64,000 nt of DNA from Candidatus Woesearchaeota archaeon (lineage in GTDB: Archaea; Nanobdellota; Nanobdellia; Pacearchaeales; GW2011-AR1): contig CAZBWB010000001.1 in NCBI GenBank assembly GCA_964495875.1, forward strand, positions 215,656-279,655, read 5' to 3'. Made by a program: the position numbers and the translations under genes. A model generated the notes under the pieces. It ran no database searches, was not told the DNA's origin, and saw nothing but the letters and a program-made list of their open reading frames with translations. Of this stretch, positions 14,245 through 61,089 are shown piece by piece (position 1 is the first letter of the stretch; each line of letters begins with the position of its first letter).

Positions 14245-14889
14245 ATGTTTAAGAAGAAAGAATGCAGAAAATGCGGAAAGAAAATTAACGAAAAATACAG
14301 ATTTTGTCCTTATTGCGGTTCAACAGACAATAAATTTGATGATGAAAACTGGGGCATGCTTGGAAGAGATGATTTTATGAATCCTAACAATTTCCAGTTA
14401 CCTTCTGGATTTAACATGATATTTAATTCTTTAATGAAAAATTTAAGCAAACAATTGAATAATATGTATGATGAATCAAGAAAAAATTCTGACAGCAAAC
14501 TAAAAAAAGAGGGAATGAGTATAAGTATTTCAACTTCAGGAAATAATCCCCCCAAGATAAAGATAAATTCTTTCGGAAATGAAAAGGGAGAGATAAAAAA
14601 AATACCCGGACAATTCTCCAAGGAAAATGCAAAAAAATTTGTTTCACTTTCAAAAAAAGAGCCTAAAACAAACATAAGAAGATTATCTAATAGAGTGATT
14701 TATGAAATGGAAATCCCTAGTGTGAAGTCATTAAAGGATATATCTATAATAAAACTTGAAAACAGTATTGAAATAAAAGCCATTGGAAAAAACAAAGCAT
14801 ATTTCAAGCGAATACCTGTGAATCTGCCGATAATCAATTATGATTTATCAGAAGGAAAATTAATTCTTGAGTTTAATTTAAAAAATTAA
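14245..14889 (+). CDS. zinc-ribbon plus Hsp20/alpha-crystallin-like protein
   Basis: CRKC...CPYC N-terminus; C-terminal beta-sandwich pattern ending EGKLILEF. Confidence 0.7.
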   Translation: MFKKKECRKCGKKINEKYRFCPYCGSTDNKFDDENWGMLGRDDFMNPNNFQLPSGFNMIFNSLMKNLSKQLNNMYDESRKNSDSKLKKEGMSISISTSGNNPPKIKINSFGNEKGEIKKIPGQFSKENAKKFVSLSKKEPKTNIRRLSNRVIYEMEIPSVKSLKDISIIKLENSIEIKAIGKNKAYFKRIPVNLPIINYDLSEGKLILEFNLKN

Positions 14890-15039
14890 TGAGCCTGCAC
14901 GGATTTGAACCGTGGACCCCTACCTAGCTGAAGTTAAGATAATATCACCAATTTATCTCAACTATATCAGAATCACCTTCTGTCTAATTTTTTCATTAGG
15001 ACAGAATGTAGTGCTCTAACCAGGCTGAGCTACAGGCTC
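14890..15039 (-). tRNA. tRNA-Ile(GAT) with two introns (14972..15007 at 30/31, 36 nt; 14926..14964 at 37/38, 39 nt)
   Basis: Acceptor GAGCCTG/CAGGCTC, D-stem GCTC/GAGC, T-arm CACGG-TTCAAAT-CCGTG. Removing two BHB-bounded introns gives a 75-nt tRNA with CTACT-CTGATAA-GGTAG. Confidence 0.9.
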
Positions 15040-15065
15040 ATCTAAATTCAAAGAGATGAGAATAT

Positions 15066-15776
15066 TTATAAGTTTTGCGAATCTAAAAATTTTTGATATT
15101 TTATTTTATGCTTGGGATTCTGAGGATTAATTAATTTCATAAATCTATGAAACATCTCAACTCCCCTAATAGTTATAACATAACTTCTTTGACGATTAAA
15201 TTTTTCATTGTATAATTGAGAATAACTCGTAACTCTCAGATTATAATTATTAAATATTTTTATTAGTTGTTTGGCCAATTTTTCAGATATTGTTGTTATA
15301 TATAAGCGAGGATATAATTTATTATTTTTCTTTTCTAAATAAATTCCTCCGTCTGTATCAAAAATTCCACGAATAATTGCTTTTTTTAGTCTATCATTTA
15401 TTAGAAAAATTTTAGGAATTTCTATATCAAATTTTTTTCCCAAAGGTAATCCCAATTTTTGTTTAAATTTGATAATACAATCTTTCCAAATTTGGAATCC
15501 AAAAACCCTAGTAGAAGCCATATCCCTCAAATTAATCTTAACTCCATATAATTTTTCAAAAAGAGGTTTAATCCTTGTTATATAGTGTTCTTTATCTTCT
15601 TCTATATGGCCTCTAAGTTGATAAAAGCCTTTTAATTTACCGCTGTTGTTATAATAATTCATACTCCCGTCTCCAATATGCCAACCAATCTCTTCTGCAA
15701 GTTCAGGAGTTATTTTCATATCAAAATAATGCTCTAAGAGTTTATAAAGATTAATACACGAACTTTTAAAAACCAA
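15066..15776 (-). CDS. free-standing two-motif LAGLIDADG homing endonuclease (likely start ATG 15719)
   Basis: Motifs IGWHIGDGS and IRGIFDTDG, both acidic catalytic positions intact; no intein splicing residues. Confidence 0.88.
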   Translation of the reverse strand: MVFKSSCINLYKLLEHYFDMKITPELAEEIGWHIGDGSMNYYNNSGKLKGFYQLRGHIEEDKEHYITRIKPLFEKLYGVKINLRDMASTRVFGFQIWKDCIIKFKQKLGLPLGKKFDIEIPKIFLINDRLKKAIIRGIFDTDGGIYLEKKNNKLYPRLYITTISEKLAKQLIKIFNNYNLRVTSYSQLYNEKFNRQRSYVITIRGVEMFHRFMKLINPQNPKHKIKYQKFLDSQNL

Positions 15777-15793
15777 ATCAAGTTAGATAAATC

Positions 15794-16318
15794 ATGGCAA
15801 AAGGATTTTACCATTATATGCGGGAAGCGTGGAAAAAACCAGATAAAAAAACTCTCAGAGAGAGGATGGTTGAATGGAGAAAATCAGGTATATTCACGAA
15901 AGTGGACAAGCCATTGAGATTAGACAGGGCTCGGGCACTTGGATACAAGGATAAAAAAGGATTCGTAATAATCAGAGTTAGAATAAAAAGAGGGGGGCAT
16001 AAAAGACCCCGTCCGAATAAAGGAAGGCGAAGCAAACGCCTTCATACGAGAAAAACCTTAAGTATGAATTATAAAGGAATCGCGGAGCAGAGAGTTTCAA
16101 AAAAATACACGAATCTTGAAGTTTTAAATTCTTATATTATTGGAAAAGATGGAGTAAATTATTTTTATGAAGTAATTTGTGTGGACCCAAACAAACCTGA
16201 AATAAAAAATGATAAAACAATAAACTGGATTTGCAATCCTAAAAACAGAAAAAGAGCAATGAGAGGTTTGACAAGTGCAGGTAAAAAATCAAGAGGATTG
16301 AGAAAAAAGAGGAAATAA
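15794..16318 (+). CDS. rpl15e: 50S ribosomal protein L15e
   Basis: RLDRARALGYKDKKG, NLEVLNSY and RGLTSAGKKSRGL. Confidence 0.97.
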   Translation: MAKGFYHYMREAWKKPDKKTLRERMVEWRKSGIFTKVDKPLRLDRARALGYKDKKGFVIIRVRIKRGGHKRPRPNKGRRSKRLHTRKTLSMNYKGIAEQRVSKKYTNLEVLNSYIIGKDGVNYFYEVICVDPNKPEIKNDKTINWICNPKNRKRAMRGLTSAGKKSRGLRKKRK

Positions 16319-25956: not shown

Positions 25957-26059
25957 GTCCCGGTAGCTCAGTTGGCAGAGCACATGGCTGTTAAAATTAT
26001 AATTTTTCAAGGAATTAATAGAAACCATGGTGTCAGAGGTTCGAGTCCTCTCCGGGACG
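25957..26059 (+). tRNA. tRNA-Asn(GTT) with a 30-nt intron (25994..26023) at 37/38
   Basis: GTCCCGG/CCGGGAC acceptor, CATGG-CTGTTA|A-CCATG anticodon arm, AGAGG-TTCGAGT-CCTCT T-arm. Confidence 0.93.
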
Positions 26060-41481: not shown

Positions 41482-41604
41482 CGGGCTCGCGAGGATTCGA
41501 ACCCCGATTAATCGGTTTCTCACAAACTTCGTTCGATATTATTAAACATCGCTTACGAACTCGCTCGCCGAAGCCGATTGTGCTATCCATTACACCACAA
41601 GCCC
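41482..41604 (-). tRNA. tRNA-Arg(TCG) with a 51-nt intron (41517..41567) at 37/38
   Basis: GGGCTTG/CGAGCCC acceptor, ATCGG-CTTCGG|A-CCGAT anticodon arm, CGGGG-TTCGAAT-CCTCG T-arm. Confidence 0.92.
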
Positions 41605-59027: not shown

Positions 59028-59546
59028 ATGCAAAAAATAAAGGCATATTTTGTTGGCAGGATTATAAGCACAAATTCAGCTGAAGCATATTCTCTTTACA
59101 AAAAAAGCTGTTTTGGAGAACCTGTTGGAGAAAAAATCCAGTATTCATTCTCAGAAGCCTTATTCCTCGTTGAAAAAGGAAAAATAGATATTTTCATAAA
59201 AGATAAAAAGATTATAAAAAAAGAATTATTAAAAAAACTCCAGAGATTAGATAAAAAAATTCAGATTAAATATCCTGTTTTTAAAGATTTGAGAGAAAGA
59301 GGTTATGTAATAAAAACAGCGCTGAAATTTGGAGCAGAATTCAGAGTTTATGAAAAAGGAGCAAGGCCCGGAAAAAAACATGCAAAATGGATTGTTTTCA
59401 CAGATTATGAGTCAGGAAAATTAACATGGCATGAATTCTCTGCAAAAAACAGAGTTGCCCATTCAACGAAAAAGAATCTGCTGTTAGCCATTGTCGACGA
59501 AGAAGGGGACATAAGCTATTATGAAATTAAATGGATAAGACCATAA
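59028..59546 (+). CDS. endA: tRNA-intron endonuclease (single-unit alpha type)
   Basis: EALFL, VFKDLRERGY, LKFGAEFRVY, KHAKW, RVAHSTKKNLL; 172 aa. Confidence 0.93.
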   Translation: MQKIKAYFVGRIISTNSAEAYSLYKKSCFGEPVGEKIQYSFSEALFLVEKGKIDIFIKDKKIIKKELLKKLQRLDKKIQIKYPVFKDLRERGYVIKTALKFGAEFRVYEKGARPGKKHAKWIVFTDYESGKLTWHEFSAKNRVAHSTKKNLLLAIVDEEGDISYYEIKWIRP

Positions 59547-61000: not shown

Positions 61001-61089
61001 GTCTCTGTAGCTCAGAGTCCAGAGCGCTGCTCTCATGATCATTTTTATGAGAAAGGCAGAGGTCGAGGGTTAAAATCCCTCCAGAGACA
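61001..61089 (+). tRNA. tRNA with CAT anticodon (elongator Met or Ile2) with a 16-nt intron (61038..61053)
   Basis: GTCTCTG/CAGAGAC acceptor, CTGCT-CTCATG|A-GGCAG anticodon arm, BHB helix CTCA/TGAG, T-arm GAGGG-TTAAAAT-CCCTC. Confidence 0.85.

What the first reader, a model, noticed from the sequence alone, without database searches (positions are those of the whole stretch)
14890..15039. tRNA-Ile(GAT) with two introns flanking a 7-nt anticodon micro-exon, implying ordered splicing
Intron A (14972..15007, position 30/31) has helix CACT/GGTG with 3-nt bulges ACA and ATT. Intron B (14926..14964, position 37/38) has helix CTGA/TCAG with bulges TAT and CTA. The middle exon is only TCTGATA. Intron B's outer helix (CTACT/GGTAG) forms fully only after intron A is removed. 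Intron A's outer helix is only about 2 bp and uses the same CT that intron B needs, so A-then-B order is inferred. Standard tRNA finders are likely to miss or mis-call this gene.
Basis: partly seen in the sequence, partly recalled or inferred. Interest (0 to 1): 0.72.

Follow-up and report, generated by a model that had tools for sequence, protein, structure and literature searches.

The report
Two-intron isoleucine tRNA gene, DPANN archaeon
This is a real isoleucine tRNA gene from a tiny sediment archaeon, cut by two short protein-spliced introns that leave the anticodon on a 7-base middle exon; the anatomy is correct, but this kind of gene is already known, and the proposed fixed splicing order is not shown.

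Summary
Window 15039..14890 (- strand) is a tRNA-Ile(GAU) gene with a 36-nt intron at 30/31, a 7-nt exon UCUGAUA and a 39-nt intron at 37/38. Removing both introns gives a 75-nt sequence identical to intronless tRNA-Ile genes in five related Woesearchaeota/Pacearchaeota (DPANN) genomes.

Relatives also carry the 30/31 intron alone (2 genomes), a 37/38 intron alone (16) or both (9 or more). Both intron hairpins show compensatory base changes. A BRE/TATA promoter is conserved at -32..-24. A 172-aa splicing endonuclease (EndA) gene lies in the window.

The inferred "A then B" order is only partly supported. B's full outer helix does need A removed. However, both central helices, both intron hairpins and all four bulges can coexist in the primary transcript. 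Either single-intron intermediate has the same architecture as a natural gene in a relative. No RNA data exist.

Multi-intron tRNAs, nested introns, middle exons of a few bases and ordered removal are all already published (Thermoproteales, ARMAN-2, Methanopyrus kandleri, Cyanidioschyzon merolae). Verdict: new member of a known kind, of modest interest. Its value is as a clean natural series for testing endonuclease specificity and splicing order.

The parts
15063..15076 (-). Archaeal promoter AAAACTTATAAATA (BRE plus TATA box). The TATA part lies at -32..-24 from the first tRNA base.
   Evidence: Read directly. The same motif at the same distance precedes most of the 46 orthologous tRNA-Ile genes.
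15008..15039 (-). 5' exon, tRNA positions 1-30: acceptor 5' strand, D arm, and C27-C30 of the anticodon stem.
   Evidence: Identical to the intronless orthologues.
14972..15007 (-). Intron A, 36 nt, between positions 30 and 31. It has a 7+4 bp hairpin. GGUG pairs with C25-U28. The bulges are AC|A and AU|U. Motif type is relaxed HBh' with a marginal 2-bp outer helix.
   Evidence: The intron is homologous in 10 other genomes, always 36-37 nt. Five hairpin pairs show compensatory change. The central and outer helices are invariant.
14965..14971 (-). Middle exon UCUGAUA, covering U31-A37 and carrying anticodon GAU.
   Evidence: Invariant in all 47 genes parsed.
14926..14964 (-). Intron B, 39 nt, at the canonical 37/38 position. 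It has an 11-bp hairpin. UCAG pairs with C32-A35. The bulges are UA|U and CU|A. It becomes a strict hBHBh' motif once intron A is out.
   Evidence: It belongs to the same intron family in the other two-intron genes, with five hairpin pairs showing compensatory change.
14890..14925 (-). 3' exon, positions 38-73: A38, G39-G43, variable loop, T arm, acceptor 3' strand and discriminator A73. No CCA is encoded.
   Evidence: This was the pattern used to retrieve the orthologues.
14880..14885 (-). Run of six T just after the gene; a likely transcription stop.
   Evidence: Read directly. The terminator role is inferred from general knowledge of archaeal oligo-T termination and was not tested.
59028..59546 (+). 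EndA, the tRNA splicing endonuclease: 172 aa, one catalytic alpha unit. It is the presumed enzyme that cuts both introns.
   Evidence: Pfam tRNA_int_endo_N and tRNA_int_endo domains. Best solved relatives are the M. kandleri alpha unit, the M. jannaschii alpha4 enzyme and N. equitans alpha. No second EndA-like ORF is present in the window.

Best explanation
**What it is.** This is a functional tRNA-Ile(GAU) gene of a Woesearchaeota/Pacearchaeota-type DPANN archaeon. It is transcribed from a conserved BRE/TATA promoter as a precursor of about 150 nt carrying two protein-spliced (bulge-helix-bulge) introns.
- Intron A (36 nt) sits at 30/31 in the anticodon stem. To present its splice sites, C25-U28 must leave the D stem and anticodon stem and pair with the intron's GGUG. 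Its outer helix is marginal, so it is a relaxed HBh'-type substrate.
- Intron B (39 nt) sits at the canonical 37/38 site.

**How it is processed (inferred).** The splicing endonuclease cuts in the 3-nt bulges and an RNA ligase (RtcB type) joins the exons. This yields a 75-nt tRNA, to which CCA is then added.

**Why one intron at a time (inferred).** The exon between the introns is only 7 nt and is held by a single G-U pair. Cutting all four sites before any ligation would release the anticodon. The two introns must therefore be removed one at a time, each by a cut-then-join cycle. The competition between the two complete motifs would favour this: A's outer helix competes with B's central helix, and A's central helix competes with B's outer helix.

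**Order.** A first is somewhat more likely. A's motif is the more stable one in all seven two-intron genes for which both were computed, and B becomes a strict motif only afterwards. The order is not fixed by the sequence.

**Shown versus inferred.** Shown: gene, junctions, motif geometry, conservation and covariation. Inferred: expression, the enzyme, one-at-a-time processing and the order.
For: - **Gene.** Rfam tRNA hit at 46.4 bits.
- **Junctions.** Spliced product identical to five intronless orthologues, which ARAGORN calls Ile(gat).
- **Natural series (47 genes parsed, window included).** 22 intronless, 16 with a 37/38 intron only, 2 with A only, 7 with both. Two more two-intron genes (L172, L168) were found through a neighbouring gene.
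- **Conservation.** Exons are invariant or change in a compensatory way. Across the whole structure, 15 pairs change on both sides, 97.9% of cells pair, and 0 of 500 shuffles reach the observed values.
- **Intron A helices.** The central and outer helices are invariant in all 11 genes that carry A.
- **Promoter.** Conserved at the same distance.
- **Enzyme.** An EndA gene is present; the Tyr, His and Lys motifs align with solved enzymes.
- **Motif energies.** A -13.1 and B -11.9 kcal/mol without outer helices. B is -15.5 with its 5-bp outer helix after A is removed. A is lower than B in all seven genes compared.
- **Precedent.** In C. merolae the non-canonical introns are removed before the 37/38 intron (PMC3728597).
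Against: - **No RNA evidence.** The runs that hold the locus are metagenome assemblies. The 'joined' forms in them are other species' genes.
- **Enzyme type.** This EndA has no insertion, relative to the strict M. jannaschii alpha4 enzyme, at the site of the N. equitans-specific loop. Published work ties cleavage of relaxed motifs to such loops (PMC5829648, PMC3488258). Either a beta subunit lies outside the window or this enzyme departs from that rule.
- **Folding model.** The global folding model does not recover the cloverleaf or B's motif. It prefers a 1-nt-bulge register at A's 3' site. The thermodynamic arguments are therefore weak.
Confidence: 0.85

Rival explanations
1. Obligate order, A then B. 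Intron B cannot be recognised until intron A is excised and the anticodon stem is restored, so splicing is strictly sequential in that direction.
For: - B's 5-bp outer helix is interrupted by A. It adds about -3.6 kcal/mol only after A is removed.
- A's motif is more stable than B's in all seven genes compared.
- A's central helix has a probability of 0.84-0.94 in the primary transcript in 6 of 7 genes in the model.
- Nested introns are reported in some archaea, and in C. merolae the 37/38 intron goes last (PMC3728597).
- If this EndA is a strict alpha4-like enzyme, B would need its outer helix.
Against: - B's central helix, 11-bp hairpin and both bulges can form with A still present.
- A is itself a relaxed motif in every context, so the enzyme must accept relaxed motifs. 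A strict enzyme could not cut A at all.
- A-only genes (L025, L038) show that the B-first intermediate is a workable substrate type.
- There are no RNA data.
Confidence: 0.35
2. No fixed order, or B first. Either intron can be cut first, because both are relaxed motifs in the primary transcript. Removing B frees C32 and U33 for A's outer helix.
For: - Both intermediates correspond in architecture to natural single-intron genes.
- The conformers differ by only a few kcal/mol.
- A's outer helix competes with B's central helix for C32/U33.
- With M. kandleri pre-tRNA-Glu, the canonical intron was cut within minutes and the relaxed D-loop intron more slowly or poorly, for the enzymes tested (PMC5829648).
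Against: - A's 2-bp outer helix is unfavourable in the model even when C32/U33 are free (+2.7 kcal/mol), so freeing them gains little.
- The 3-bp surrogate outer helix available to B in the primary transcript is not conserved: in L168 it is only two G-U pairs.
Confidence: 0.45
3. A dead or decaying tRNA gene disrupted by two insertions. A working intronless copy would then exist elsewhere in the genome.
For: Only 64 kb of the genome is visible, so a second copy cannot be excluded. There is no expression evidence.
Against: - Exons are identical to working-type orthologues.
- Splice geometry is exact and conserved in 9 or more species.
- Compensatory changes occur in both intron hairpins and in the tRNA stems.
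- The promoter is conserved.
- DPANN genomes are small and usually carry few tRNA genes (median 35 per genome in Nanobdellota, 10.64898/2026.05.13.725050).
Confidence: 0.03

Closest known systems
Multiple-intron and nested-intron tRNA genes of Thermoproteales (Sugahara et al. 2007, 2008; summarised in PMC4033280 and PMC4090602, cited in PMC3728597)
   Same: - Two or three bulge-helix-bulge introns in one tRNA gene.
- Non-canonical positions in the anticodon or D region combined with 37/38.
- Relaxed HBh' motifs.
- In some of these genes the last intron's motif forms only after the others are removed.
   Different: - The lineage here is DPANN (Woesearchaeota/Pacearchaeota), low G+C and apparently mesophilic, not Crenarchaeota.
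- The enzyme visible here is a single 172-aa alpha unit, not an alpha-beta pair with the Crenarchaea-specific loop.
- Only B's outer helix depends on A's removal, not B's whole motif.
[quoted passage not shown] 1C)
   Same: - A DPANN archaeon.
- Two adjacent introns that leave a middle exon of a few nucleotides (6 nt by my count from those positions).
- The same risk of losing the middle exon applies.
   Different: - The ARMAN-2 introns are in the T loop and both are strict motifs. Here they flank the anticodon and one is relaxed.
- ARMAN-2 uses the three-unit epsilon2 enzyme with its specific loop.
Methanopyrus kandleri pre-tRNA-Glu(UUC), with introns at 20b/21 (HBh') and 37/38 (PMC5829648)
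   Same: - One relaxed HBh' intron plus one canonical intron in a single tRNA.
- An endonuclease without a specificity loop.
- The mature tRNA was seen by RNA-seq even though in vitro cleavage of the relaxed intron was poor.
   Different: - The two M. kandleri introns are far apart and do not compete for the same nucleotides.
- The M. kandleri enzyme is an alpha-beta heterotetramer.
Cyanidioschyzon merolae nuclear tRNA-Phe(GAA) and tRNA-Ile(UAU), with two or three introns (PMC3728597, PMC9602550)
   Same: - Ordered removal was shown experimentally by RT-PCR of intermediates.
- The 37/38 intron goes last.
- The order correlates with motif free energy.
   Different: - C. merolae is a eukaryote.
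- Its motifs fold independently and are not nested.
- Its introns are not adjacent.

Membership tests
Archaeal bulge-helix-bulge (EndA-spliced) tRNA intron | Two 3-nt bulges on opposite strands, separated by a 4-bp helix, with cleavage after the second bulge nucleotide | tested here: met
   - Intron A: CACU/GGUG with bulges AC|A and AU|U.
- Intron B: CUGA/UCAG with bulges UA|U and CU|A.
- The central helices pair in all orthologues that carry each intron.
Archaeal bulge-helix-bulge (EndA-spliced) tRNA intron | Flanking helices h (outer) and h' (inner), as required for the strict hBHBh' form | tested here: inconclusive
   - The inner helix h' is strong and covaries for both introns.
- The outer helix of B is met only after A is removed (5 bp).
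- The outer helix of A is 2 bp, invariant, unfavourable in the energy model and in competition with the D stem. A is best called a relaxed HBh' motif.
Archaeal bulge-helix-bulge (EndA-spliced) tRNA intron | Removal restores a standard cloverleaf tRNA | tested here: met
   The product is 75/75 identical to intronless orthologues, which ARAGORN calls tRNA-Ile(gat).
Archaeal bulge-helix-bulge (EndA-spliced) tRNA intron | A splicing endonuclease is encoded by the organism | tested here: met
   ORF 59028-59546 has both Pfam endonuclease domains. It aligns with solved EndA structures across the Tyr, His and Lys motifs.
Archaeal bulge-helix-bulge (EndA-spliced) tRNA intron | The introns are actually excised from RNA | not testable with these tools
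   Only metagenome-type runs hold the locus. The joined forms seen there are other species' genes.
Multiple-intron tRNA gene | Two or more such introns in one colinear tRNA gene | tested here: met
   The same architecture occurs in L017, L023, L026, L033, L036, L043, L172 and L168.
Nested introns with obligate order (last motif forms only after the others are removed) | The second intron's motif cannot form in the primary transcript | tested here: not met
   B's central helix, inner hairpin and both bulges can form with A present. Only the outer helix is missing. Whether the enzyme needs that helix is unknown.
Split or permuted tRNA gene | tRNA pieces encoded at separate loci or in reversed order | tested here: not met
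   All three exons are colinear within 150 nt.
Broad-specificity EndA (Crenarchaea-specific loop, ARMAN loop or N. equitans loop) | A lineage-specific loop insertion near the catalytic site | tested here: not met
   - The Tyr108-His118 segment (EKGARPGKK) has the same length as in M. jannaschii alpha4. It is 6 residues shorter than the N. equitans loop.
- The segment is basic (4 of 9 residues are K or R).
- The C-terminal Trp169 matches the Trp that PMC3488258 reports only in Crenarchaeal and Nanoarchaeal alpha subunits.
- The N-terminal loop site was not examined structurally.

The most novel reading that the evidence does not exclude
The two splice motifs are built to exclude each other. A's outer helix borrows two bases of B's central helix, and A's central helix borrows two bases of B's outer helix. 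The endonuclease can therefore engage only one intron per cut-and-join cycle, which protects a 7-nt anticodon exon that would otherwise be lost. On this reading, the job is done by a single-subunit, loop-less alpha-type EndA. That would break the published rule that such enzymes cut only strict motifs.
Probability: 0.25. Interest if true: 0.55.

Novelty: new member of a known kind. Interest (0 to 1): 0.3.

Why it matters
On its own this is one more disrupted archaeal tRNA gene. Its practical value lies in the natural series around it. Across species of one DPANN lineage, the tRNA-Ile(GAU) gene has identical or nearly identical exons and occurs in four states:
- without introns;
- with the 30/31 intron only;
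- with any of about nine unrelated 37/38 introns;
- with both introns.

That gives ready-made substrates and controls for three questions:
- Does a small alpha-type endonuclease without known specificity loops cut relaxed motifs?
- Are adjacent introns removed in a set order?
- How fast are tRNA introns gained and lost?

It also bears on annotation. A standard finder run without intron handling missed every tRNA in this 64-kb window, so tRNA counts for such genomes can be badly underestimated.

Tried and rejected
1. **Metagenome scan.** I scanned with the 14-mer AGGTGATTCTGATA. All 120 loci returned were chance matches with no tRNA context.
2. **RNA evidence.** The RNA-kind run search gave two runs of unknown kind that hold only exon words. 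Laying contigs showed joined forms, but these are other community members' intronless or differently interrupted genes, present also in the DNA run. They are not evidence of splicing.
3. **Global thermodynamic folding to decide the order.** The minimum-energy fold and the partition function do not recover the cloverleaf or B's motif even for the canonical intermediate. I judged them uninformative. Only the local motif energies are reported, and those with caution.
4. **Homing idea.** I asked whether the LAGLIDADG gene just upstream is a free-standing homing endonuclease that drives or protects the introns. I rejected this for three reasons:
   - the protein has more than 560 homologues at about 66-77% identity;
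   - the gene-tRNA pair is conserved in relatives;
   - the same pair occurs with an intronless tRNA-Ile (L170/L171).
5. **Spread of intron A to other sites.** Its 3' end occurs only in tRNA-Ile genes in the DNA held here. The sample of other tRNA genes is small.
6. **A second (beta) endonuclease subunit in the window.** None was found.
7. **A single composite 82-nt intron, or different junctions.** Both are excluded by identity with the intronless orthologues.

Full report
**What is in the sequence.**
- The Rfam tRNA model matches window 14890..15039 on the - strand at 46.4 bits, against a gathering score of 29, with about 80 nt inserted in the anticodon arm.
- ARAGORN finds no tRNA anywhere in the window.
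- Rfam finds four tRNAs in the window, all with inserts (19-80 nt in the Rfam alignments).
- Reading the - strand gives five segments:
  - 5' exon 15039-15008 (32 nt, positions 1-30, with a 10-nt D loop)
  - intron A 15007-14972 (36 nt)
  - exon 2 14971-14965, UCUGAUA (U31-A37)
  - intron B 14964-14926 (39 nt)
  - 3' exon 14925-14890 (36 nt, A38-A73, no CCA encoded)
- The spliced product is 75 nt. It has a standard cloverleaf, anticodon loop CUGAUAA, anticodon GAU, A37, U12-A23 and A73.

**Is it real? Comparative evidence.**
- I scanned one genome per species with the 3' exon pattern. This returned 47 loci, almost all labelled Woesearchaeota, Pacearchaeota or Nanoarchaeota (DPANN).
- Five of them (L001, L006, L010, L032, L046) carry an intronless gene that is 75/75 identical to the product predicted from the window. 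ARAGORN calls L001 and L006 tRNA-Ile(gat).
- Given that reference, neither junction can be slid by even one base.
- The 47 genes parsed (46 of the loci plus the window) form a natural series:

| State | Genes |
|---|---|
| No intron | 22 |
| 37/38 intron only (about 8 unrelated families, 14-67 nt) | 16 |
| Intron A only (L025, L038) | 2 |
| Both introns (window, L017, L023, L026, L033, L036, L043) | 7 |

- L014 is probably a further two-intron gene but is cut at the locus edge.
- Two more two-intron genes, L172 and L168, turned up through a neighbouring protein.
- Intron A is always 36-37 nt and clearly homologous. Intron B of the two-intron genes is one family.
- On an 11-sequence alignment the proposed structure pairs in 97.9% of cells, against 43.5% or less for slid controls. 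Fifteen pairs change on both sides, and 0 of 500 shuffles reach that value. Five such pairs lie in each intron hairpin, and others lie in the acceptor, anticodon and T stems.
- The central and outer helices of intron A never vary. That is expected, since one strand is tRNA.
- A promoter, AAAACTTATAAATA, lies at -37..-24 (its TATA part at -32..-24), at window 15076-15063. The same motif stands at the same distance in most orthologues.
- A T6 run follows the gene.
- Together these findings indicate a gene under purifying selection, not a wreck.

**How it most likely works.**
- Both introns have the geometry cut by the archaeal splicing endonuclease: two 3-nt bulges separated by 4 bp, with cleavage after the second bulge base.
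- An EndA gene is in the window (59028-59546, 172 aa). It has both Pfam domains. Its motifs FRVYE (Tyr108), KKHAKW (His118) and AHSTKK align with solved enzymes.
- Intron B is a textbook canonical intron once A is gone (outer helix 5 bp, -15.5 kcal/mol).
- Intron A is different in three ways:
  - Its central helix takes C25 from the D stem and C27/U28 from the anticodon stem.
  - Its 2-bp outer helix would take G24 and A23 from the D stem as well.
  - In the nearest-neighbour model that outer helix costs +2.7 kcal/mol.
- A is therefore best described as a relaxed HBh' motif in every context, including the A-only genes.

**The order question.**
- In the primary transcript both central helices, both hairpins and all four bulges can coexist. 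What cannot coexist are the complete motifs.
- B also has a 3-bp surrogate outer helix (U31-G39, U-G40, A-U41). It is unfavourable and not conserved (L168), so it is probably incidental.
- Motif energies without outer helices are A -13.1 and B -11.9 kcal/mol in the window. A is lower in all seven two-intron genes compared. By the rule of thumb from C. merolae (lower free energy first, 37/38 last; PMC3728597), A first is somewhat favoured.
- An enzyme able to cut A must accept relaxed motifs, and so could also cut B early.
- Each possible intermediate has the architecture of a natural gene in a relative (A-only, or 37/38-only).
- I conclude that a strict order is not established.
- What I consider a sound inference is that the two introns cannot both be cut before ligation. 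The 7-nt exon is held only by U31-G39 and would be lost.

**The enzyme puzzle.**
- Published work holds that strict alpha4 and alpha'2 enzymes cut only strict motifs. It ties relaxed-motif cleavage to lineage-specific loops: L1 (Crenarchaea-specific), L2 (ARMAN) and L3 (N. equitans/ARMAN-2) (PMC5829648, PMC3488258, PMC12397907).
- DPANN alpha4-type enzymes with L3 have been linked to disrupted tRNA genes, in a survey that included one Woesearchaeota and one Pacearchaeota genome (PMC5829648).
- This EndA aligns without a gap to M. jannaschii alpha4 across the L3 site. It lacks 6 residues of the N. equitans loop.
- Its loop is basic (EKGARPGKK). It ends in IKWIRP, with a Trp that aligns with the N. 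equitans alpha Trp. PMC3488258 reports that Trp only in Crenarchaeal and Nanoarchaeal alpha subunits.
- No second subunit is visible in the window, but only 64 kb of the genome is available.
- This is the one point where the locus might teach something new.

**What is already known.**
- Multiple-intron tRNAs with up to three introns are well documented in Thermoproteales (PMC4033280, PMC4090602).
- Nested introns, whose motif forms only after others are removed, are reported in some archaea (PMC3728597, citing Sugahara 2008).
- ARMAN-2, also a DPANN archaeon, has a tRNA-Pro with introns at 53/54 and 59/60. By my count from those positions that leaves a 6-nt middle exon (PMC3239211).
- M. kandleri tRNA-Glu combines an HBh' intron with a canonical one (PMC5829648).
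- Ordered removal was shown by RT-PCR in C. merolae (PMC3728597, PMC9602550).
- The finding is therefore a new member of a known kind.

**What failed or was rejected.**
- The metagenome 14-mer scan returned only chance hits.
- No RNA evidence exists. The joined forms seen in runs are other organisms' genes.
- Global folding was uninformative.
- The LAGLIDADG gene upstream is a widely conserved lineage gene. It pairs with tRNA-Ile whether or not the tRNA has introns, so a homing role is not supported.

**Verdict.** Novelty is low to moderate, and I set interest at 0.3.

Noticed in passing
window 15066-15776 (-), likely ATG at 15719: A two-motif LAGLIDADG protein gene ends 27 nt upstream of the tRNA, and the tRNA promoter overlaps its 3' end. 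It has more than 560 homologues at about 66-77% identity and about 221 aa in Pacearchaeota/Nanoarchaeota. The same gene-then-tRNA-Ile pair occurs in L017, L033, L168 and L172-174 (two-intron tRNA) and in L170/L171 (intronless tRNA). It looks like a conserved, possibly domesticated, lineage gene of unknown function.
   Followed up: partly
L002-L047 tRNA-Ile genes: Sixteen orthologues with identical or near-identical exons carry a 37/38 intron. These introns fall, by eye, into about eight mutually unrelated families of 14-67 nt. This suggests rapid turnover or repeated gain of introns at the same site.
   Followed up: partly
L168 3343-3500; L015 and L018 just upstream of the tRNA: Partial tRNA-Ile duplicates sit beside the full gene. 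L168 has a 23-nt 3' fragment (TTCAAATCTGTGCAGCCTCATTT) downstream of the gene, within the next ~200 nt. L015 and L018 have a fragment of about 22 nt matching the tRNA's 5' end within the 55 nt upstream of the gene. They look like attachment-site repeats left by integrating elements.
   Followed up: no
L025, L026, L172-174 versus window 14245-16318: The tRNA (with the LAGLIDADG gene where present) lies in the opposite orientation, relative to the flanking zinc-ribbon and ribosomal L15e genes, from its orientation in the window. The module has been inverted within a conserved neighbourhood (MetRS, MFS transporter, zinc-ribbon, tRNA-Ile, L15e, DNA ligase).
   Followed up: partly
window 25957-26059 (+), 61001-61089 (+), 41482-41604 (-): The other three tRNA genes in the window also carry inserts (31, 19 and 54 nt in the Rfam alignments). 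ARAGORN reports none of them. The 41482-41604 gene reads as Arg(UCG)-like, with a 51-nt insert by my parse. Its central helix has only 3 of 4 pairs, making it another relaxed motif.
   Followed up: partly
L168 273-425; L172 1114-1220: Two other tRNA genes in relatives are 153 and 107 nt long in the Rfam match, far above the ~72-75 nt of an uninterrupted tRNA. The first may be another multi-intron gene.
   Followed up: no
L016 229-314; L034 4739-4827: ARAGORN miscalls intron-bearing tRNA-Ile genes, as tRNA-Leu(taa) in L016 and as an undetermined tRNA in L034. This shows how such genes can be mis-annotated.
   Followed up: yes
window 59028-59546 (+): This EndA is a single 172-aa alpha unit with no loop insertion relative to M. 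jannaschii. It does have a basic Tyr-His loop and the C-terminal Trp typical of broad-specificity alpha subunits. That mix does not fit the published type and loop scheme.
   Followed up: partly
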